From the NCBI GenBank assembly GCA_037431425.1, contig GCA_037431425.1_4129.5: a stretch of DNA of 21,685 bases. One strand, written 5' to 3'. This stretch comes from a phage. The position numbers were made by a program, and so were the translations under genes. Of the stretch, positions 6,941 to 14,535 are shown one piece after another. The notes under the pieces are model-generated. The model saw only the letters and a program-made list of their open reading frames with translations, was not told where the DNA came from and searched no databases. The first letter of the stretch is position 1. Each line of letters starts with the position of its first letter.

Positions 6941-7318
6941 ATGGCTGCTAATGACGTTAAAGTAAAAACTATTCAAGCTATCGTAGTACTGAAAGATTCA
7001 ACTCCATCTCCAAAAGAATTGGTAATGGCTGGAATGACAATGCTTCATCAATACAATCCTGAATCACCAAATTATGTTCAAGAATACGAAGCAAAGCAGT
7101 TTAAAGTACATTGGCAGTCATGGATTAAAGATAATGAAATGGAGCAGGTCGTCTATGCTGCTGATGACATTTTTGAATTAGAACAAATTGAATATCTGGC
7201 AGGTCAACAATCAGTTCCATTGAGTATTTTTGGTAATGGTGAGGAAGTTTTAGTTCTAGGTCCATTCACTGCCGATGTAATTACACACTTACTAAGTAAT
7301 TGTGAAAAAATTGGCTAA
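6941..7318 (+). CDS. hypothetical protein
   Basis: 125-aa ORF with AGAGG SD upstream. Confidence 0.6.
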   Translation: MAANDVKVKTIQAIVVLKDSTPSPKELVMAGMTMLHQYNPESPNYVQEYEAKQFKVHWQSWIKDNEMEQVVYAADDIFELEQIEYLAGQQSVPLSIFGNGEEVLVLGPFTADVITHLLSNCEKIG

Positions 7319-7359
7319 ATGCTTAAAATTATCAGGATACCGAAACAATACATTGATGT

Positions 7360-7373
7360 TAAATAATATAAAG
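7360..7373 (+). promoter_or_regulatory. late-promoter-like motif TAAATAATATAAAG
   Basis: 14-mer identical to 14495-14508 (upstream of tail tube gene). Contains TATAAAG, close to the T4 late-promoter core TATAAATA. Confidence 0.3.
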
Positions 7374-7534
7374 TATTGGGTTGACCCATACTTTAATAAT
7401 TCATTGTTAATGTACAGAGATAAAAGTCGAGATTTATACGGAATATATGTTACGCAGTTAATATATGCTATAGATTCAGAACATTTTACTCCGTTGGTAT
7501 ACCTGTACTGTCTTTATAATTCCAAATAACTATT

Positions 7535-7579
7535 AGCACCTCTAAATAATGTATATAAACATTAATGAGGTGCTTTTTT
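7535..7579 (+). terminator. hairpin + T-run overlapping the RBS of the next gene (terminator and/or translational regulator)
   Basis: AGCACCTC (7535-7542) pairs with GAGGTGCT (7567-7574); the 24-nt loop has an inner AATGT/ACATT palindrome; TTTTT 7575-7579 runs into ATG 7580. The 3' arm contains the GAGG Shine-Dalgarno. Confidence 0.4.
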
Positions 7580-8371
7580 ATGTCTTACGATTATATGGGT
7601 GGAAACCCAGATGCTCCTAACTTTGACCATCGTGAAAAACTGAAAGATGTTATCACTCAAATGTTGGGTGCAGGGGCTGTTGAGGTAGAAATTACTGATG
7701 GTCAATTAGAAATTGCAATTGATAATGCTGTATCAAATTACAGAGCGTGGAGTTCTGCTTCTAAAGAAGAAGCATTTTTAAATATGAAATTCTATGATTC
7801 ACAATCTGTATATATGCTCCCAACTGAAGTTGAAATAGTTAAAAAGATTTACCGCTATGGTAATGGTTATTTAAGTTCTGGGTCAGGTAACAGCGTAGAC
7901 CCATTCTCATTGGCATTCACAAATACATATCTATTGACTTCGGCTAGGAATGCAGGTGGATATGATTTAACAACTTATGATTTCAGTTTTCAATTTCAAG
8001 AATTGGTTGGTCGTATGTTTGGACGTGAAATTATATTCCAATTTAACCCAATGACTAAGAAACTTATTATTGACCGTGATATTCGCGGTACAGAAGAAGT
8101 TCTACTACATGTGTATCATAATATTCCAGAACCATTATTGTTCCAACGTCAGCAAAGCTACCCGTGGCTTCGTGATTGGGCATTGTCTGAAGCAATGATT
8201 ATGCTTGGTCGTAACCGTGCTAAGTTTGCTAGTTTGCCTGGACCACAAGGGACATTTTCAATGGATGGTGATACATTAAGAAATGAAGGTATCCAATTAC
8301 AAGAACAACTAAAAGAACAGTTGAAGCGATATAAAGATGGTGGAGAACCACTTGGAATGATTATCGGGTAA
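7580..8371 (+). CDS. hypothetical protein, possibly virion (neck / tail-completion) protein
   Basis: ORF track 7565..8371. ATG 7580 is 9 nt after GAGG; the 7565 ATG lies inside the hairpin. Structural role inferred only from position near sheath/tube genes. Confidence 0.65.
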   Translation: MSYDYMGGNPDAPNFDHREKLKDVITQMLGAGAVEVEITDGQLEIAIDNAVSNYRAWSSASKEEAFLNMKFYDSQSVYMLPTEVEIVKKIYRYGNGYLSSGSGNSVDPFSLAFTNTYLLTSARNAGGYDLTTYDFSFQFQELVGRMFGREIIFQFNPMTKKLIIDRDIRGTEEVLLHVYHNIPEPLLFQRQQSYPWLRDWALSEAMIMLGRNRAKFASLPGPQGTFSMDGDTLRNEGIQLQEQLKEQLKRYKDGGEPLGMIIG

Positions 8372-8397
8372 ATTTTAAACATCAAAAAGAGTACTAT

Positions 8398-10392
8398 ATG
8401 AATAATGAAGAATTGAAAAAACTTTTGTTGTCAAAACATATTAATTCATGGGTACATTTATACAAAGGGGACTCTCATGTGAGGGATCTCCTTTCTATTT
8501 TTGGAATAGAACCAAAAACTGATTTCGAAATATATAAAATTCTATATATGTTCATGAATGATATATCAACAATCCCAACTGCATATTGCGGAAAAAAAGC
8601 AAGATATAAAAATTTTCAAAAAGGATTTTATAAATTTTGCGATGATTATATTATTAATAAAAAAAATACATGTAATGTATGTCATGAAATGTATTATAAA
8701 AATCGAACAAATAAAACAAAATCAACATTAATGGGTATGTATGGTGTATCTAATGTGTCCCAGATCCAAGAAGTAAAGAAAAAGAAAGAAAAAACTAACA
8801 TGGAGCGTTATGGTGTTTCTACTAATTTACAAACATCAGAATCTAAAGAGAAAATCAAACAAACTAATATAGAGCGTTATGGATGTGAATATCCAAACCA
8901 AAACCCTGAAATATTTAATAAAGTAAAAGAGACAAATTTAAAAAAATATGGTGTTGAATTCCAAAGTAAAAGAAATGAAGTAAAAGAGAAAGCAAAAAAT
9001 ACAAATATCTTAAAATACGGTACTGAGTACTCTTTATCATCACCGACGATTCGTGAAAAAATCAATAAAACAAATCTTGAACGATATGGTGGTAACCCAC
9101 TATCAAATAAAATTATCCAAGATAAAATAAAAAATACCAATATATTGAAGTATAATTCATTTTATCCAATGAGCAATTTGGATGTTCAGAAAAAAGTTCA
9201 TAATACAAATGTGGAAAGATATGGTGTAAAACACCCATCCCAGAATAATTCTATTATTGAAAAAATGAAAGAAACCACAAAAAATAGATATGGGGCTGAA
9301 CACTACTCACAAACTGATGAGTATAAAGAGAAAATGTCACTTGCTCATCTAGACGAAAGATATACTATAATTGTTGAAAATATTGATAAAAACTATATTC
9401 CATTATTTGAAAACACAGACCTGATGATGAAAGTTAACACCGATGAATACCCATTTTGGTGTGAATATTGTGATGATTTGTTTTATAGTAAGTACAAAAA
9501 TCATAAAGTGAAATGTAAGTGTCAGAAAAATAATGGTCATTCCTTGAAAGAGAAAGAGTTAGTTGATTATATAAAATCATTAATACCAAATATGGAAATT
9601 ATAGAAAATGACCGTTCAGTACTGAAACCTAAAGAGTTGGATGTGTGTATTCCAGAACTTAAACTAGCTATTGAATTTAATGGTGTTTATTGGCACAATG
9701 ATGAAAATATCAATTCTACTAAACATCAAGATAAGGTATTAGATTGTTTAAAACATGGTGTAAATCTTATTCACATTTATGAAGATGAATGGGATAACCC
9801 ATTAACCAATAAAATTATCAAGGAACGTTTAAAGAATAAACTTCTAGCGTCTAATAGAATTTATGCTAGAAAATGTACTGTTAGAAACATAGACAAACAA
9901 GTAAGTAATAAGTTTGTGAAATCACATCATATCCAAGGTGTTGCACAAGCAAGTATACACATTGGGCTTTACTATGGGTGCGATTTAGTTGCTGTTATGA
10001 CCTTTGGTAAATCAAGGTTTGATAAAAACTATGAATATGAATTAATCAGATACTGTTCATCTGGTACAGTTGTTGGTGGTGCATCAAAATTACTAAAATA
10101 TTTCGAAACCGTATATAATCCACAATCATTGTTGACATATGCTGATATGGATTGGAGTAATGGTAATCTTTACACGGTTCTTGGTTTTGAGTTAGATAGC
10201 TATACAGAACCTGGATATTTTTATTATGACCCACAAACGCACGAGAGAATTTCACGTCAAAAATGTCAAAAACATAAATTGATTAAGAAAGGTCACGATA
10301 TCAACTTAACCGAGAGACAAATTTGCTGTGATGTATTGGGATATTATAAGATTTACAACTCTGGTAATATAAAATACACAAAAAAATATTAA
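8398..10392 (+). CDS. modular nuclease, free-standing homing-endonuclease-like
   Basis: 664 aa. Two Cys clusters (C-x16-C-x10-C-x2-C near residues 64-95; CEYCDD...CKC around residue 350). About nine tandem ~24-aa repeats with core K-x-TN-[ILMV]-[EK]-[RK]-YG. Vsr/DUF559-like PD-(D/E)XK segment (KELDVCIPELKLAIEFNGVYWHND...HGVNLIHIYEDEW). Extra C-terminal domain of unknown fold. Confidence 0.6.
   Translation: MNNEELKKLLLSKHINSWVHLYKGDSHVRDLLSIFGIEPKTDFEIYKILYMFMNDISTIPTAYCGKKARYKNFQKGFYKFCDDYIINKKNTCNVCHEMYYKNRTNKTKSTLMGMYGVSNVSQIQEVKKKKEKTNMERYGVSTNLQTSESKEKIKQTNIERYGCEYPNQNPEIFNKVKETNLKKYGVEFQSKRNEVKEKAKNTNILKYGTEYSLSSPTIREKINKTNLERYGGNPLSNKIIQDKIKNTNILKYNSFYPMSNLDVQKKVHNTNVERYGVKHPSQNNSIIEKMKETTKNRYGAEHYSQTDEYKEKMSLAHLDERYTIIVENIDKNYIPLFENTDLMMKVNTDEYPFWCEYCDDLFYSKYKNHKVKCKCQKNNGHSLKEKELVDYIKSLIPNMEIIENDRSVLKPKELDVCIPELKLAIEFNGVYWHNDENINSTKHQDKVLDCLKHGVNLIHIYEDEWDNPLTNKIIKERLKNKLLASNRIYARKCTVRNIDKQVSNKFVKSHHIQGVAQASIHIGLYYGCDLVAVMTFGKSRFDKNYEYELIRYCSSGTVVGGASKLLKYFETVYNPQSLLTYADMDWSNGNLYTVLGFELDSYTEPGYFYYDPQTHERISRQKCQKHKLIKKGHDINLTERQICCDVLGYYKIYNSGNIKYTKKY
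8716..9351 (+). repeat. in-frame tandem array of ~9 degenerate 69-75-nt repeats inside the nuclease gene
   Basis: Translated repeats: MGMYGVSNV.., TNMERYGVS.., TNIERYGCE.., TNLKKYGVE.., TNILKYGTE.., TNLERYGGN.., TNILKYNSF.., TNVERYGVK.., TKNRYGAEH.., each followed by a variable spacer ending in EK[IMA]. Confidence 0.6.
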
Positions 10393-10398
10393 TAAAAT

Positions 10399-10426
10399 AG
10401 ACTCCATTTTTTTGGGGTCTTTTTTC
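10399..10426 (+). terminator. putative intrinsic terminator
   Basis: AGACTCC / GGGGTCT 7-bp stem (one G-U pair), 8-nt loop, then TTTTTC. Immediately after the nuclease stop. Confidence 0.5.
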
Positions 10427-10434
10427 ATATGTGG

Positions 10435-10443
10435 TGATATAAT
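10435..10443 (+). promoter_or_regulatory. extended -10 promoter element TGaTATAAT
   Basis: Same 9-mer TGATATAAT as at 4809-4817. About 32 nt upstream of ATG 10475. No good -35. Confidence 0.3.
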
Positions 10444-10474
10444 GTTTATTACATTAACGTAAAGGAATAATCCT

Positions 10475-10741
10475 ATGAATACTGAGAAGGTAATGTACAA
10501 TCGATATCGTTGTGGTAGACCAACCCTAGATTATGAATCTACTGAAAATTTCTGGAGATTTATCAAAGATTCAATTGTTGATGTTATCGGTAGAGATCGA
10601 GTAAATGCATGGGCTAGTATATATCGTGACAATAATGGTGAGACATTTTTCATCACATATGTTTCTGTGTATGACAAAAACGAGATGGTTGTGGATTTAC
10701 TTGAATGTTTAGTAGGGAAAGATTTAATAGAAATTGTATAA
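10475..10741 (+). CDS. hypothetical protein
   Basis: 88-aa ORF with AAGGA SD upstream. Confidence 0.55.
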   Translation: MNTEKVMYNRYRCGRPTLDYESTENFWRFIKDSIVDVIGRDRVNAWASIYRDNNGETFFITYVSVYDKNEMVVDLLECLVGKDLIEIV

Positions 10742-10759
10742 AATACATGGAGTAGTATA

Positions 10760-11386
10760 ATGGGAAGACAAATAATTGCAATCAATGGAACTATTGGAAG
10801 TGGGAAAGATACTTTTGCTAAAACATTCATTGAAAATGGATATACAAAAATGTCATTTGCGACCAATCTAAAAGATTCGGTTGCTTCTATTTTTGGTTGG
10901 GATCGTGAAATGCTTGAAGGAACTACCAAGGAAAGTCGAAAGATTCGTGAAGAGCCAGATCAGTACTGGTGTAAAAAGATGGGACGTGATGATGTTTCAC
11001 CTCGTTGGGTACTACAAAATTACGGAACTAATATTTTACGTAAGTATTTTCATAATGATATCTGGGTATTTAGTTTAGAAAAAACAATGCAAGAAATTGA
11101 TGGAAATATTATCATTACTGATTGTCGTTTCCCAAATGAATTAAAAATGATTAGATCACAAAACGGAACTATTATTGAAGTACGTCGTGTACTTCCACAT
11201 TGGTATGGTCTAGCGGCATCATATAATAAAAGAAATATTTCTATTAAACCAGTAGAACTTGAAACAGTCCATGAATCTGAATGGGCTTGGATTGGAATAA
11301 ATTATCCTGATATTATTGTACATAACAATGGTACGCTAGAAGACTTACAGAAAAAAGCATTGGAGATTATTTACTCTAATATGTAA
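10760..11386 (+). CDS. P-loop deoxynucleoside monophosphate kinase (T4 gp1-like)
   Basis: Walker A INGTIGSGKDT at the N-terminus. Overall pattern resembles T4 gene 1 dNMP kinase (SGxxxSGKDT ... ITDCRFPNE). GGAG 7 nt upstream. Confidence 0.55.
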   Translation: MGRQIIAINGTIGSGKDTFAKTFIENGYTKMSFATNLKDSVASIFGWDREMLEGTTKESRKIREEPDQYWCKKMGRDDVSPRWVLQNYGTNILRKYFHNDIWVFSLEKTMQEIDGNIIITDCRFPNELKMIRSQNGTIIEVRRVLPHWYGLAASYNKRNISIKPVELETVHESEWAWIGINYPDIIVHNNGTLEDLQKKALEIIYSNM

Positions 11387-11443
11387 AATATAAACAATAA
11401 AGACTGGTCATTTAAATCCTTCAATAAATAAGACTATACGAAT

Positions 11444-11451
11444 ATAAATTT
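11444..11451 (+). promoter_or_regulatory. late-promoter-like TATAAATT
   Basis: TATAAATT 32 nt upstream of the sheath ATG; one mismatch from the T4 late consensus TATAAATA. Confidence 0.3.
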
Positions 11452-11482
11452 CGAACAACCAATTATTTTTGGAGGATTTAAT

Positions 11483-14146
11483 ATGGCAGGAGATCTACTC
11501 TCACCTGGCGTGTCTATCTCAGTAACTGATAACAGTATGAGTACTGCTGCTGCTCCTGGCACAGTACCACTATTTGTAATTGCTACTGCTGAAGACAAAC
11601 TTGTCCCTGGCAGCAACGCAATTGCCACTGGAACTACTAAAGCAAATGCAGGTAAATTGCAGCTTTTGACATCACAAAAAAGTTCACTTGATACCTACGG
11701 TACACCAATTTTCCAAACGAATAACGGATCTGTTGTACAAGGAGATGAACTAAACGAATATGGTCTACATGCAGTATATTCATACCTAGGAATTACCAAT
11801 CGTGCTTATGTAATTCGTGCTGATATCGACCTAGCACAACTTGCACCACGTGCTGAAGCTCCAACTGGTCCAGTATCCAATGGTACTTTGTGGTTTGATG
11901 CTGCACAATCGCAAGTTGAAGCATATGTAGCTAAAAAAGATAGTCCAAGTAGTTTTTATGATTGGCAACTTAAGCCAGTAACTTTTGTTAGTGCAGAAGA
12001 AATTGATGATGTAAGCCTAGTAGGTTTAAATGTTGATGATTTAGTTCTACGTTATAAGCCAAGTAATGGTCAGATGTTAATGTATAAGCGTACTGCTTCT
12101 GGTTTGGTTCAAATGGAAACCTACTTATCCCCAATTAACAAAGTTCCAGTAGGCCCAACAGTAGAAAAAGGTAACATTTGGATTCGTGATGGATATACAC
12201 AAAACGGTTCTAACTATTTTGGTACTCGTTTTGTTATTAAACGTTATGCATCGTTAACTCAAGTTTGGAATGTTGTACCAACATACACAGGTAATTCATT
12301 TCAAGAAATCGAAGCGAAAAGTGGAGTACTAAACAATAGTTATATCGCATCTCGTTTTGATGAAGATAGTAAGAGTTTCTCTTTCTATATCCAAAGTGCT
12401 AAACTATCAACTATTAGTGCACCAGCGTTGCCATTAGGTGAAACTATCATTGAACAAGCTGGTGATGATAGTTACATGACATTTACTTACTTGAATAAGT
12501 CAGTGAAAGTACTAGCAGTGCCGAATGGTGGTGTTATTAATACACAAACTATCATCAATAATCTGAATTCTAATGCTGAAGTGATTAACGATGGTTTCAA
12601 ATTCAAACGCGAAGCAAATGGTAGTTTAGTTGTTTCTAATATTAAAGGATATAGTTTCAAAATCACACAAAGTGGTGATGACATTTTTGCAGAAGACGAA
12701 CTACAAAAACTAACTGTAAACAGCAACAACTACTCTCAAATTAATATTAAAAACTTTCGTGTCAGTGAATCCGTACCGCGTAATATCGCAAAAGATGGAA
12801 CTTTGTGGTATGATTTCGGAAACTCAGATAATCTAACTGTCACTCTATATGTGGCTGATGTGGCAAATGACAAATGGGAACTTGTACAAGATGAAAACAA
12901 ATATGTACAAGTTGATGAGCCAGCAGCAGACCGTACAATTTGGGTATGCCCACTATCACAAGGTGTTGATGGTTATGAATTCTATCGCAATGTTGATGGG
13001 GAGTGGGTTAAGCTTGATAACACTGATCAAAGCACCCTAAATGGCATGGTTTTCCACGATTTTAATATTCCATCCACTGTTCCAGCAGCAGCATTATATC
13101 AAAATGGTATGTTGGCTGTTGATTTAGGCAACACTGAAGGTGTTGTTAAAAAAATGGTTAATGGTCAATGGGAAGTTGTTAGTGGTGTAAGTATTGATGG
13201 TGCTGGCTTGTTTGGTCGTGCTGCACAACGCAAACTAGTTGTTGAAGCTTTGGCTGCTGTCATTGTAGGCAATGATGAAATTCGTTCTGAATTTATTGAT
13301 TTTAACCTAATTTGTGTACCTGGGTATGTCGAAACACTATCTGATTGTGTAACACTAAACACTGATCGTAAAGAAACTGCATTTATTGTTACCGATGTAC
13401 CAGCACGTTTAGATCCAACTGGAAATGGTAGTGCCGTACAGAAATGGGCAACCAATGCAAATAATGCACCAACTAATGGTCCAGTGGGTAGAACAACTGC
13501 ATATGATTATGCTGCTCAGTATATGGGTTGGTGTTTAAGTACCAATGTTGACGGTATGGAAGTTGCTGTACCTGGAAGTACTATTGCTATGCGTACATAT
13601 GCATACAGTGATAGTGTAAGTTATGTATGGTATCCACCTGCTGGTACAACCCGTGGTGTTGTAACTAATGCTGCAAGTACTGGTTTTATTAATAGTGAAG
13701 GTGAATATCAACCAGTCGTATACAATCAAGGTCAACGTGATGTTATGTATACTAATAACATTAACCCAATTGCGATGCGACCTAATCGTGGATTGTTGGT
13801 ATATGGTGATAAAACACTATCTGCTAACCAAACTTCCGCTTTAAGCCGTGTTAACGTAGCTCGTTTGGTTGTTTATATTCGTCGCCAGCTAGAAATTATT
13901 TCTGAACCATTCCTATTCCGTTTGAATACACCAAGTACTCGTCAGGAATTCAGTGGTGTTGTGAATAGTTTCCTAGCTGAAATTGTACAACAACAAGGTC
14001 TATATAACTTTGCTGTAGTTTGTGATGAAAGCAACAATACTTCTGAACGTATTGATCGTAATGAACTATGGATGGATATTGCAATCCAACCAACTAAGTC
14101 TATCAACTTCATTTATGTACCAATTCGTATTGAGAAGACTCAATAA
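11483..14146 (+). CDS. contractile tail sheath protein (T4 gp18 family)
   Basis: 887 aa. N-terminus MAGDLLSPGVSISVTD matches T4 gp18 MTLLSPGIELKET. C-terminus VVCDESNNTSERIDRNELWMDIAIQPTKSINFIYV matches gp18 VVCDTTNNTPSVIDRNEFVATFYIQPARSINYITL. Strong GGAGG SD. Confidence 0.9.
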   Translation: MAGDLLSPGVSISVTDNSMSTAAAPGTVPLFVIATAEDKLVPGSNAIATGTTKANAGKLQLLTSQKSSLDTYGTPIFQTNNGSVVQGDELNEYGLHAVYSYLGITNRAYVIRADIDLAQLAPRAEAPTGPVSNGTLWFDAAQSQVEAYVAKKDSPSSFYDWQLKPVTFVSAEEIDDVSLVGLNVDDLVLRYKPSNGQMLMYKRTASGLVQMETYLSPINKVPVGPTVEKGNIWIRDGYTQNGSNYFGTRFVIKRYASLTQVWNVVPTYTGNSFQEIEAKSGVLNNSYIASRFDEDSKSFSFYIQSAKLSTISAPALPLGETIIEQAGDDSYMTFTYLNKSVKVLAVPNGGVINTQTIINNLNSNAEVINDGFKFKREANGSLVVSNIKGYSFKITQSGDDIFAEDELQKLTVNSNNYSQINIKNFRVSESVPRNIAKDGTLWYDFGNSDNLTVTLYVADVANDKWELVQDENKYVQVDEPAADRTIWVCPLSQGVDGYEFYRNVDGEWVKLDNTDQSTLNGMVFHDFNIPSTVPAAALYQNGMLAVDLGNTEGVVKKMVNGQWEVVSGVSIDGAGLFGRAAQRKLVVEALAAVIVGNDEIRSEFIDFNLICVPGYVETLSDCVTLNTDRKETAFIVTDVPARLDPTGNGSAVQKWATNANNAPTNGPVGRTTAYDYAAQYMGWCLSTNVDGMEVAVPGSTIAMRTYAYSDSVSYVWYPPAGTTRGVVTNAASTGFINSEGEYQPVVYNQGQRDVMYTNNINPIAMRPNRGLLVYGDKTLSANQTSALSRVNVARLVVYIRRQLEIISEPFLFRLNTPSTRQEFSGVVNSFLAEIVQQQGLYNFAVVCDESNNTSERIDRNELWMDIAIQPTKSINFIYVPIRIEKTQ

Positions 14147-14152
14147 AACATT

Positions 14153-14180
14153 AAGGGAACCTTTTGGTTCCCTTTTTTAT
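14153..14180 (+). terminator. intrinsic terminator
   Basis: GGGAACC-TTTT-GGTTCCC perfect stem followed by TTTTTT. Directly after the sheath stop. Confidence 0.8.
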
Positions 14181-14230
14181 TAGTTAAAATTAAATACGTT
14201 ATATTATCAATTTAGTGATTTGGATATATT

Positions 14231-14377
14231 ATGGAAGAAATACTTAAAAAAACATTACAGGATGTAAGTAATACAGTAAGGACACAAGAAGAATCATTGA
14301 AAATCTTAAAAGAATTTTTGAATAATCTAGAACATTGTCGGTATTATTCGTGGATATACTGTGTACACAAATGGTAA
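14231..14377 (+). CDS. possible small ORF (48 aa) in the sheath-tube intergenic region
   Basis: ATG 14231 to TAA 14375-14377 (MEEILKKTLQDVSNTVRTQEESLKILKEFLNNLEHCRYYSWIYCVHKW). Weak SD, too short for the ORF track, no motif support. Confidence 0.2.
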   Translation: MEEILKKTLQDVSNTVRTQEESLKILKEFLNNLEHCRYYSWIYCVHKW

Positions 14378-14494
14378 ATGGTCTATTGGTATAAATTATA
14401 TAGATTATAACCAAAATAAAAAATACTTGTATTGTGTTAATATAGATTGGTTCCCTTATTGATGACATACTTCAATAAAAGTATTATTAATAGA

Positions 14495-14508
14495 TAAATA
14501 ATATAAAG
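14495..14508 (+). promoter_or_regulatory. late-promoter-like motif TAAATAATATAAAG
   Basis: Identical 14-mer to 7360-7373. 28 nt upstream of the tail tube ATG 14536. Confidence 0.35.
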
Positions 14509-14535
14509 ATGTCATTCCATAATAGGAGAATATAA

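What the first reader, a model, noticed from the sequence alone, without database searches (positions are those of the whole stretch)
7360..14508. Recurrent TAAATAATATAAAG / ATATAAA(G/T) motif upstream of structural genes: candidate late promoter
The same 14-mer occurs at 7360-7373 and 14495-14508. Related AATATAAA(G/T/C) motifs lie upstream of the sheath (11444-11451), tube paralogue B (about 15295-15303) and ORF 17262 (17240-17247). The core resembles the T4 late-promoter consensus TATAAATA, suggesting a gp55-like late sigma system with a slightly different consensus. The 7360 copy is about 200 nt upstream of any gene, so there may be an unannotated small RNA or leader there.
Basis: partly seen in the sequence, partly recalled or inferred. 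Interest (0 to 1): 0.5.

Follow-up and report, generated by a model that had tools for sequence, protein, structure and literature searches.

The report
T4-type late promoters, misread register

Summary
The window is 99.5% identical to Escherichia phage ph0011, an Asteriusvirus (RaK2-like jumbo myovirus). The 14-mer is exact at 7360 and 14495. That alone means little, because dinucleotide shuffles of the window give about 4.7 repeated 14-mers.

It is not depleted, its noncoding/coding density ratio is 1.6, and 7% of copies lie 20-75 nt upstream of a start. It is not conserved upstream of the sheath, tube B or head-completion genes.

The real signal is (A/C)TAAATA:
- It is 3.5-fold depleted overall and purged from both strands of coding DNA.
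- 55% of ATAAATA copies lie 20-75 nt upstream of a start (median 42 nt for both variants).
- It precedes 24 of 40 structural genes against 25 of 442 others.
- It is invariant in four genera upstream of neck (7542), sheath (11424), tube A (14494, overlapping the 14-mer), tube B (15273) and gene 18298 (18262).

The 7360 copy lies inside a conserved, unannotated small ORF, not a leader or sRNA. At neck and sheath the promoter sits inside a hairpin that masks the ribosome-binding site, as in T4 gene e. The same consensus was published for GAP32 and CBB. No transcription start sites have been mapped.

The parts
5776..5782 (+). CTAAATA, candidate late promoter overlapping the stop codon of gene 5541-5783. 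It is followed by a leader hairpin and lies 53 nt upstream of the ATG at 5829.
   Evidence: One search gives the site. One search shows CTAAATA at this position in all seven related phages printed (UE-S1, 121Q, Turkey3, A4, Yen9-03, GAP32, CBB; three genera). The downstream hairpin arms differ between genera: GAAGAAC/GTTCTTC versus GAAGGAA/TTCCTTC.
7302..7529 (+). Unannotated small protein-coding ORF of about 72-75 aa (start GTG 7302 or TTG 7311), the homologue of 121Q gp547. It contains 14-mer copy 1.
   Evidence: The ORF is annotated in 121Q. The frame is open in 5 Asteriusviruses. Against 121Q there are 18 synonymous and 9 non-synonymous codon changes, with 21 third-position differences against 8 and 7 at positions 1 and 2. 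It has no PHROG match.
7360..7373 (+). 14-mer copy 1 (TAAATAATATAAAG). It is coding sequence (codons L-N-N-I-K) and carries TTAAATA, a variant with no promoter-like statistics.
   Evidence: One search confirms the match. It is not conserved: 121Q reads TACAATGATATTAAG and Turkey3 reads TACAATGACTTAAAG. Genome-wide only 10% of TTAAATA copies lie in the upstream zone, which is background.
7535..7582 (+). Neck-gene control hairpin. The 5' arm is AGCACCTC (7535-7542) and overlaps the late-promoter word CTAAATA (7542-7548). The 3' arm is GAGGTGCT (7567-7574) and is the Shine-Dalgarno. A T-run (7574-7579) and the ATG at 7580 follow.
   Evidence: Predicted folding energy is -17 kcal/mol (z -5.4, 0 of 200 shuffles as stable). 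A transcript starting near 7555 is unstructured (z -0.2). CTAAATA and a hairpin are conserved in 4 genera with different arms: ACCCCTAAATATG/CATGTTTAGGGGT in Yen9-03, with GAP32 and CBB sharing the CCCCTAAATATG core.
11410..11485 (+). Sheath-gene control region. The anti-SD arm ATTTAAATCCTTCAA (11410-11424) is followed at once by the late-promoter word ATAAATA (11424-11430). The SD GGAGG (11471-11475) and the ATG (11483) form the 3' arm.
   Evidence: ATAAATA is invariant in the 9 phages aligned, from 4 genera. The long-transcript fold is -23.6 kcal/mol (z -5.2), and the late transcript is unstructured (z -0.2). 94% of stem cells pair across the 9 phages, against 27-68% when the partner is slid.
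11441..11449 (+). It lies in the predicted leader and is not a conserved element.
   Evidence: UE-S1 reads aatatataa, 121Q aatatattt, K64-1 gaataatcg and GAP32 aatattcga.
14494..14508 (+). Tube A late promoter ATAAATA (14494-14500) plus its spacer and predicted start region. 14-mer copy 2 is 14495-14508. The ATG is at 14536.
   Evidence: ATAAATA is invariant in the 9 phages examined, from 4 genera. Downstream only WTAAAGA is conserved: UE-S1 reads AATAAAG, and GAP32, CBB and Yen9-03 read ATTAAAG.
15242..15279 (+). Intrinsic terminator after tube A (15242-15263 plus T-run), followed by CTAAATA (15273-15279), the candidate late promoter of tube B (ATG 15315).
   Evidence: CTAAATA is invariant in the 9 phages examined, and the site is listed.
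15293..15306 (+). It is AT-rich spacer running into the SD (AAAGAGG) and is not conserved.
   Evidence: UE-S1 and 121Q read ataaaataaaaagagg, A4 reads aaattaaaagagg and K64-1 reads atataatacagagg. A start 6-7 nt downstream of it would fall after the SD.
17240..17246 (+). It is not conserved.
   Evidence: UE-S1 reads ttaataaaatc. In 121Q, A4, Turkey3, Yen9-03, GAP32 and CBB there is no intergenic spacer, and the gene abuts or overlaps the stop of the gene before it.
18262..18268 (+). ATAAATA overlapping the stop codon of gene 17712-18269. It is the candidate late promoter of virion-protein gene 18298.
   Evidence: It is invariant in the 9 phages examined, from 4 genera.
18788..18794 (+). ATAAATA inside the end of gene 18298-18834, 50 nt upstream of gene 18838. 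It is specific to the genus Asteriusvirus.
   Evidence: It is present in all five Asteriusviruses and absent in K64-1, Yen9-03, GAP32 and CBB. Its function is uncertain.
15334..15340 (+). ATAAATA inside the first codons of tube B (I-N-K-Y). It is one of the rare coding copies and is not interpreted.

Best explanation
The structural genes of this Asteriusvirus are very likely served by T4-type late promoters. The recognition element is the 7-bp word (A/C)TAAATA, which acts as a -10-type element with no -35 partner. It is probably read by host RNA polymerase core carrying the phage's gp55-family late sigma. In the window the elements sit at 5776, 7542 (neck), 11424 (sheath), 14494 (tube A), 15273 (tube B) and 18262, and possibly 18788. 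Transcription is inferred to start about 5-8 nt downstream of each. The 14-mer at 7360 is a chance match inside a small coding gene. The ATATAAA(G/T) words are background. At the neck and sheath genes the promoter lies inside, or immediately 3' of, the 5' arm of a hairpin whose 3' arm is the Shine-Dalgarno. Read-through transcripts from the upstream genes would therefore be translationally masked, while transcripts from the late promoter lack the 5' arm and are translatable. This is the logic shown for T4 gene e, soc, 49 and I-TevI. What is shown: motif statistics, conservation, the gp55 homologue and the predicted folds. What is inferred: sigma-promoter pairing, start sites, timing and translational masking.
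Against: No transcription start has been mapped in any RaK2-like phage that I could find. The PA5oct RNA-seq paper reports only sigma70-type promoters. No gp33 or gp45 homologue was detected by single-sequence phmmer or in a few neighbouring ORFs, so T4's activation mechanism may not apply. The phage also encodes an RpoD-like sigma (313766-314731) that could in principle read the motif. Genome-wide statistics use ph0011 as a proxy and my own 482 gene calls (about 570 CDS are annotated), so 'noncoding' is somewhat overestimated. The hairpin stems show conservation but little covariation, because the SD arm is constrained. Genome-wide enrichment of SD masking at motif sites is modest: 8 of 47 against 32 of 433, p 0.045.
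Confidence: 0.8

Rival explanations
1. One reading: ATATAAA(G/T), or the whole 14-mer, is the late-promoter consensus. The copy at 7360 drives an unannotated small RNA or a long leader.
For: There are two exact 14-mer copies and one 1-mismatch copy on the coding strand. In the window TATAAA is denser in intergenic DNA on the + strand: 12 of 31 copies in 9% of the sequence. Several true promoters are followed a few bases later by TATAWA.
Against: Genome-wide the word is not depleted (135 copies, observed at or above expected). Its noncoding/coding ratio of 1.6 equals that of AT-rich controls, and 7% of copies lie in the upstream zone. It is not purged from genes. The sites at 11441, 15298 and 17240 vary within the genus. 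The 15300 copy overlaps the SD, so a start 6-7 nt downstream would remove it. The 7360 copy is inside a conserved ORF and is itself not conserved. Repeated 14-mers are expected by chance.
Confidence: 0.04
2. (A/C)TAAATA is an mRNA-level signal, for example a processing site or a translation or stability element in 5' leaders, and not a DNA promoter.
For: It is strand-specific and sits at a fixed distance upstream of start codons. It is often adjacent to RNA hairpins.
Against: An RNA signal should be avoided only on the sense strand. Here the antisense orientation inside genes is purged even more strongly: 7 against 123 expected, compared with 16 against 69 for sense. The word equals the last 7 bases of the T4 late -10 element, and a gp55 homologue is present.
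Confidence: 0.05
3. The motif is a promoter element, but it is read by another factor, either the phage's RpoD-like sigma (ph0011 313766-314731) or host sigma70, not by the gp55-like protein.
For: A second phage sigma with regions 2-4 exists. gp33 and gp45 partners of gp55 were not found.
Against: No -35-like element accompanies the motif. Sigma70-type TTGACA/TATAAT promoters form a separate class concentrated in the early regions. Sigma70-like matches are not enriched in the late region of the window: 54 against 67 +/- 9. The motif matches the gp55 specificity known from T4 and cyanophages (PMC2984593).
Confidence: 0.1

Closest known systems
Phage T4 late promoters (TATAAATA) read by gp55 with gp33 and the gp45 clamp
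   Different: The first T of the T4 octamer is not required; the base before the word is unbiased. C is tolerated at position 1. The sigma carries an extra N-terminal region of about 125 aa with no match. No gp33 or gp45 was detectable by sequence.
Predicted late promoters of the RaK2-like phages GAP32 and CBB (consensus ATAAATA; Abbasifar 2014 as cited in Buttimer 2017, PMC5259590)
   Same: The consensus is the same, the gene class is the same, and a gp55-like sigma was reported (CBB_244). That paper also found no gp33 or gp45. My cross-genus comparison shows the very same sites in the GAP32 and CBB sheath, tube and neck regions.
   Different: Those predictions came from MEME on one genome. 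What is added here: both-strand purging, a single-substitution scan, the CTAAATA variant, site-by-site conservation in four genera, and the link to hairpins that mask the SD. The held papers on Asteriusvirus that I checked do not describe late promoters.
NATAAATA late promoters of T4-like cyanophages (S-PM2, Syn9; PMC2984593)
   Same: They share the relaxed consensus with a free first base, and the presence of g55.
   Different: Cyanophages keep g33 and g45 homologues. None was detected here.
T4 gene e, soc, 49 and I-TevI: a late promoter inside an RBS-sequestering hairpin (PMC3014915, PMC2988022)
   Same: At neck (7535-7582) and sheath (11410-11485) the promoter word overlaps or abuts the 5' arm and the SD is in the 3' arm. 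Predicted late transcripts lack the 5' arm.
   Different: Here the arrangement applies to major structural genes and is conserved across four genera. It is predicted only; no start sites or translation data exist.

Membership tests
T4-type late promoter / gp55 system | A short AT-rich -10-type element related to TATAAATA, without a -35 element | tested here: met
   (A/C)TAAATA is the only word and variant set with promoter-like statistics. Positions -20 to -1 carry less than 0.45 bit each.
T4-type late promoter / gp55 system | The element lies upstream of late (virion and morphogenesis) genes and not of early genes | tested here: met
   It precedes 24 of 40 structural genes against 25 of 442 others (p 7e-17), and 5 of 215 genes in early-type regions. 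'Late' is inferred from gene function, not from measured timing.
T4-type late promoter / gp55 system | The genome encodes a gp55-family sigma | tested here: met
T4-type late promoter / gp55 system | A gp33 co-activator | tested here: inconclusive
   phmmer of T4 gp33 against all ORFs of 40 aa or more finds nothing below E 0.79. gp33 is small and fast-evolving, so the test is weak. Buttimer 2017 also found none in CBB.
T4-type late promoter / gp55 system | A gp45 sliding clamp acting as activator | tested here: inconclusive
   There is no gp45 hit (E above 1), although a gp44 clamp-loader homologue is present at 6.8e-22. Candidates next to the clamp loader match virion or unknown PHROGs.
T4-type late promoter / gp55 system | Transcripts start a few nt downstream of the element, late in infection, and depend on the late sigma | not testable with these tools
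   This needs 5'-end mapping or in vitro transcription. No such data were found for RaK2-like phages.
   Its density ratio of 1.6 falls at the low end of the controls' 1.6-2.7, and 7% of copies lie in the upstream zone against 6-11% for controls. Observed counts are at or above expectation.
   The sites at 11441, 15298, 17240 and 7360 all vary within the genus.
T4 gene e-type translational masking (late promoter inside an SD hairpin) | A stable hairpin pairs the SD or AUG in long transcripts | tested here: met
   The neck hairpin folds at -17 to -26 kcal/mol (z -5.4 to -6.8) in 4 genera. The sheath structure folds at -14 to -24 kcal/mol (z -1.9 to -5.2), with 94% of stem cells paired in 9 phages. 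These are predictions only.
T4 gene e-type translational masking (late promoter inside an SD hairpin) | The late promoter is placed so that late transcripts lack the 5' arm | tested here: inconclusive
   The geometry fits if the start is 5-8 nt after the motif: 7542-7548 overlaps the 5' arm, and 11424-11430 directly follows it. Modelled late transcripts are unstructured. The start sites are not mapped.
T4 gene e-type translational masking (late promoter inside an SD hairpin) | Earlier transcripts read through from upstream and are poorly translated | not testable with these tools
   The upstream genes (aminoacyl-tRNA hydrolase-like, small ORF, dNMP kinase) are of non-structural type, but there are no expression data.

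The most novel reading that the evidence does not exclude
The late sigma of RaK2-like jumbo phages is a gp55 core fused to a conserved N-terminal domain of about 125 aa with no detectable relative. It works without gp33 or gp45, so late transcription is not coupled to the clamp. The major tail and neck genes are additionally gated at translation, because the minimal 7-bp promoter is nested inside anti-Shine-Dalgarno hairpins conserved over four genera.
Probability: 0.25. Interest if true: 0.5.

Novelty: new member of a known kind. Interest (0 to 1): 0.3.

Why it matters
The result gives a usable rule for annotating late transcription units in Asteriusvirus and related 350-kb coliphages, several of which are being considered for therapy. 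The rule is (A/C)TAAATA about 40 nt upstream of the start codon. It shows that the T4 late-promoter logic, including promoters nested in hairpins that mask the ribosome-binding site, extends to a distant jumbo-phage lineage. It also points to a gp55 variant with an extra domain and no visible gp33 or gp45, which is a concrete biochemical question. It is not a new kind of system, and the consensus itself was already published for sister genera.

Tried and rejected
- phmmer of the gp55-like protein against PDB sequences gave no hit. Pfam and NCBIfam gave none either.
- phmmer of T4 gp33, gp45, gp62, DsbA and RpbA against all ph0011 ORFs gave nothing.
- PHROG scans of ORFs next to the clamp loader and the gp32-like gene found no gp45 or gp33.
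- I considered whether TATAWA, which often follows the motif after 3-5 nt, is a second element. Its information content is weak (0.44 bit or less), so I did not claim it.
- I considered the neck hairpin as a plain intrinsic terminator. K64-1 keeps the hairpin and the SD pairing but has no T-run, which favours SD masking. Both functions may coexist in Asteriusvirus.
- Literature searches for mapped late starts in RaK2-like phages found none.
Full report
**Identity of the window.** The window is 99.5% identical over 9 kb to Escherichia phage ph0011 (OP557969, 348,217 bp), genus Asteriusvirus, a RaK2-like jumbo myovirus. It is 84-91% identical to UE-S1, 121Q, PBECO4 and Turkey3, and about 71% to members of Alcyoneusvirus (K64-1, RaK2), Eneladusvirus (fHe-Yen9-03) and Mimasvirus (GAP32, CBB). 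All genes in the window are on the + strand. They include neck (ATG 7580), a homing-endonuclease-like gene (8398-10392), dNMP kinase, sheath (11483-14146), three tube paralogues (14536, 15315, 16103) and a head-completion nuclease (17262). I used the full ph0011 genome as a proxy for genome-wide statistics. My own gene caller produced 482 genes, and its starts are identical to the annotation across the window region.

**Checking the observation.** The 14-mer TAAATAATATAAAG is exact at 7360 and 14495, with a 1-mismatch copy at 15293. It occurs nowhere else in ph0011. This duplication is not significant on its own. The window has 30 distinct repeated 14-mers, dinucleotide-preserving shuffles give 4.7 on average, and 98% of shuffles have at least one.

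Across ph0011, ATATAAA[GT] occurs 135 times and is not depleted; ATATAAA is observed 287 times against 223-247 expected. Its noncoding/coding density ratio is 1.6, against 1.6-2.7 for control AT-rich heptamers. Only 7% of copies lie 20-75 nt upstream of a same-strand start, against 6-11% for controls. Inside genes it is as frequent as codon-permuted expectation.

**What the signal is.** Strand-specific k-mer enrichment in upstream regions returned three things: sigma70-type hexamers (TTGACA, GTATAAT), Shine-Dalgarno words, and ATAAATA.
- ATAAATA occurs 65 times against 211-239 expected. 42 copies are noncoding, and 36 (55%) lie 20-75 nt upstream of a same-strand start.
- A scan of all 21 single-base variants shows that only ATAAATA and CTAAATA behave this way: observed/expected 0.29 and 0.40, with 55% and 39% of copies in the upstream zone. 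Every other variant gives 1-13%, with observed/expected between 0.35 and 1.29. That includes TTAAATA, the form present in the 7360 copy, at 10%.
- The median distance from the word to the start codon is 42 nt.
- Positions upstream of the word carry almost no information, so there is no -35 element.
- Within coding DNA the word is purged on both strands, and more strongly in antisense: ATAAATA sense 16 against 69 +/- 5, antisense 7 against 123 +/- 9. This argues for a DNA-level signal, where spurious promoters are harmful in either orientation, and not an RNA motif.
- The word precedes 24 of 40 genes annotated as structural against 25 of 442 others (odds ratio 25, p 7e-17). It precedes only 5 of 215 genes in the early-type regions.
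- It is found upstream of the major capsid, scaffold, baseplate, sheath and tube genes.

**Conservation.** I compared the upstream regions of ten orthologous genes in seven to nine phages from four genera.
- ATAAATA is invariant upstream of sheath (window 11424-11430), tube A (14494-14500) and gene 18298 (18262-18268).
- CTAAATA is invariant upstream of neck (7542-7548) and tube B (15273-15279), and also at 5776-5782.
- An ATAAATA at 18788 is specific to Asteriusvirus.
- The flanks diverge freely.
At 11441 UE-S1 reads aatatataa, 121Q aatatattt and K64-1 gaataatcg. At 15298 UE-S1 and 121Q read aaataaaaagagg. At 17240 UE-S1 reads ttaataaaatc, and six phages have no spacer there at all.

Its left half (TAAATAA) belongs to the promoter word. 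Its right half is the spacer and predicted start region, where only WTAAAGA is conserved.

**The 7360 copy.** The stretch 7319-7564 is unannotated in ph0011 and UE-S1, but 121Q annotates a 72-aa ORF there, gp547. The frame is open in all five Asteriusviruses aligned. Against 121Q there are 18 synonymous and 9 non-synonymous codon changes, with 21 third-position differences against 8 and 7 at positions 1 and 2. The 14-mer encodes L-N-N-I-K and reads TACAATGATATTAAG in 121Q. It is therefore coding sequence and a chance match, not a promoter for a small RNA or a long leader.

**How the promoters are wired at neck and sheath.**

*Neck.* Directly upstream of the neck ATG (7580) a hairpin pairs AGCACCTC (7535-7542) with GAGGTGCT (7567-7574). 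The latter is the Shine-Dalgarno. Predicted stability is -17 kcal/mol (z -5.4). CTAAATA (7542-7548) overlaps the end of the 5' arm. A transcript beginning near 7555 has no significant structure (z -0.2). K64-1 keeps the same arms. In Yen9-03, GAP32 and CBB the arms are different (ACCCCTAAATATG/CATGTTTAGGGGT in Yen9-03), but they again contain the promoter word on the 5' side and the SD on the 3' side, at -23 to -26 kcal/mol and z -5.8 to -6.8.

*Sheath.* ATTTAAATCCTTCAA (11410-11424) pairs with the SD and AUG region (11468-11485), at -23.6 kcal/mol and z -5.2. ATAAATA follows the 5' arm directly. The modelled late transcript is unstructured. Across 9 phages 94% of stem cells pair, against 27-68% when the partner is slid. 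Covariation is slight because the SD arm cannot vary.

*Precedent and generality.* This is the arrangement shown experimentally for T4 gene e, soc, 49 and I-TevI. There, early read-through transcripts are translationally masked, and transcripts from a late promoter inside the structure are translated (PMC3014915, PMC2988022). Genome-wide, 8 of 47 motif sites show this masked-then-unmasked pattern against 7.4% of 433 controls (p 0.045). It is a recurring option, not a rule. Tube A and tube B instead have a plain terminator-then-promoter layout.

**Comparison with what is known.** Buttimer et al. 2017 (PMC5259590) found by MEME a consensus ATAAATA at 35 sites upstream of CBB structural genes. 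They noted that the same had been predicted for GAP32, that it resembles T4's TATAAATA, that a gp55-like sigma is present (CBB_244), and that gp33 and gp45 were not detected. T4-like cyanophages use NATAAATA (PMC2984593). The Asteriusvirus papers I could read mention only the RpoD-like sigma and no promoters. The RNA-seq study of the more distant PA5oct reports only sigma70-type promoters. I found no mapped late start for any RaK2-like phage.

**Verdict.** What is there is a set of T4-type late promoters, (A/C)TAAATA, of a kind already predicted for sister genera. Two of them are nested in hairpins that mask the ribosome-binding site. I rate it a new member of a known kind, of modest interest. 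The open points are the absence of detectable gp33 and gp45, and the unexplained N-terminal domain of the late sigma.

Noticed in passing
window 8398-10392: A 664-aa 'endonuclease domain' gene sits between the neck gene and the next small gene. K64-1 annotates a 667-aa 'homing endonuclease' at a similar position, between neck and dNMP kinase. The gene is present in ph0011, UE-S1 and K64-1 and absent at this position in 121Q, A4, Turkey3, GAP32, CBB and Yen9-03. This presence/absence pattern is typical of a mobile homing-endonuclease cassette. It has its own terminator at 10399-10420.
   Followed up: partly
window 7302-7529: A conserved small ORF of about 72 aa (121Q gp547) is missing from the ph0011, UE-S1, A4 and Turkey3 annotations. 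It has no PHROG family. It is specific to Asteriusvirus, because other genera go straight from the upstream gene to the neck hairpin.
   Followed up: yes
window 5776-5828: A conserved CTAAATA overlaps a stop codon and is followed at once by a leader hairpin. The hairpin arms differ between genera, GAAGAAC/GTTCTTC versus GAAGGAA/TTCCTTC, which looks compensatory. If transcription starts about 6 nt after the motif, the hairpin would sit at the very 5' end of the mRNA and could act as a stabiliser.
   Followed up: partly
window about 2430-2537 and 3549-3670: Two paralogous mini-ORFs end in ...GFWERL(F/R)DWLMGE*. They share a 17-base repeat, GGCTTCTGGGAACGTCT, at 2496 and 3628. One is annotated in UE-S1 as a 40-aa CDS. 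The 2430 copy may be disrupted.
   Followed up: no
ph0011 193825-194664 (L006 43825-44664), outside the window: The gp55-like late sigma has a confidently modelled N-terminal region of about 125 aa (three helices plus a small beta sheet) that is conserved in all homologues. No Pfam, PHROG or PDB relative was detected for it. No gp33 or gp45 was found in the genome.
   Followed up: partly
ph0011 210871-210907 (L007 10871-10907), outside the window: A T5orf172-domain gene has ATAAATA immediately followed by a hairpin, TCTCCAT...ATGGAGA, whose 3' arm is its SD. This is the same late-promoter and RBS-hairpin layout that controls T4 homing endonucleases such as I-TevI, segB and mobE.
   Followed up: partly
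window 17198-17261: The junction between tube paralogue C and the head-completion gene is variable. The window, UE-S1 and K64-1 have a spacer of about 64 nt and a different annotated start. In 121Q, A4, Turkey3, Yen9-03, GAP32 and CBB the gene abuts or overlaps the upstream stop codon, and the protein begins with different residues.
   Followed up: no
ph0011 300331-302705 (L009 331-2705), outside the window: A repeated early-type promoter cassette, (AG)TACTTGACTAAATAGTTCAGTACTG(T/A)ATAAT, precedes tRNA and small genes. Here CTAAATA falls in the spacer of a sigma70-type promoter, so these copies are probably not late promoters and slightly inflate the CTAAATA counts.
   Followed up: no
window 14147-14535: The 389-nt sheath-to-tube A spacer holds a bidirectional terminator (14153-14174) and a 48-aa ORF (14231-14377), annotated in several relatives. 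It also holds an overlapping 74-aa ORF on the opposite strand (14244-14468). In GAP32, CBB and K64-1 the spacer is only about 110-120 nt.
   Followed up: no
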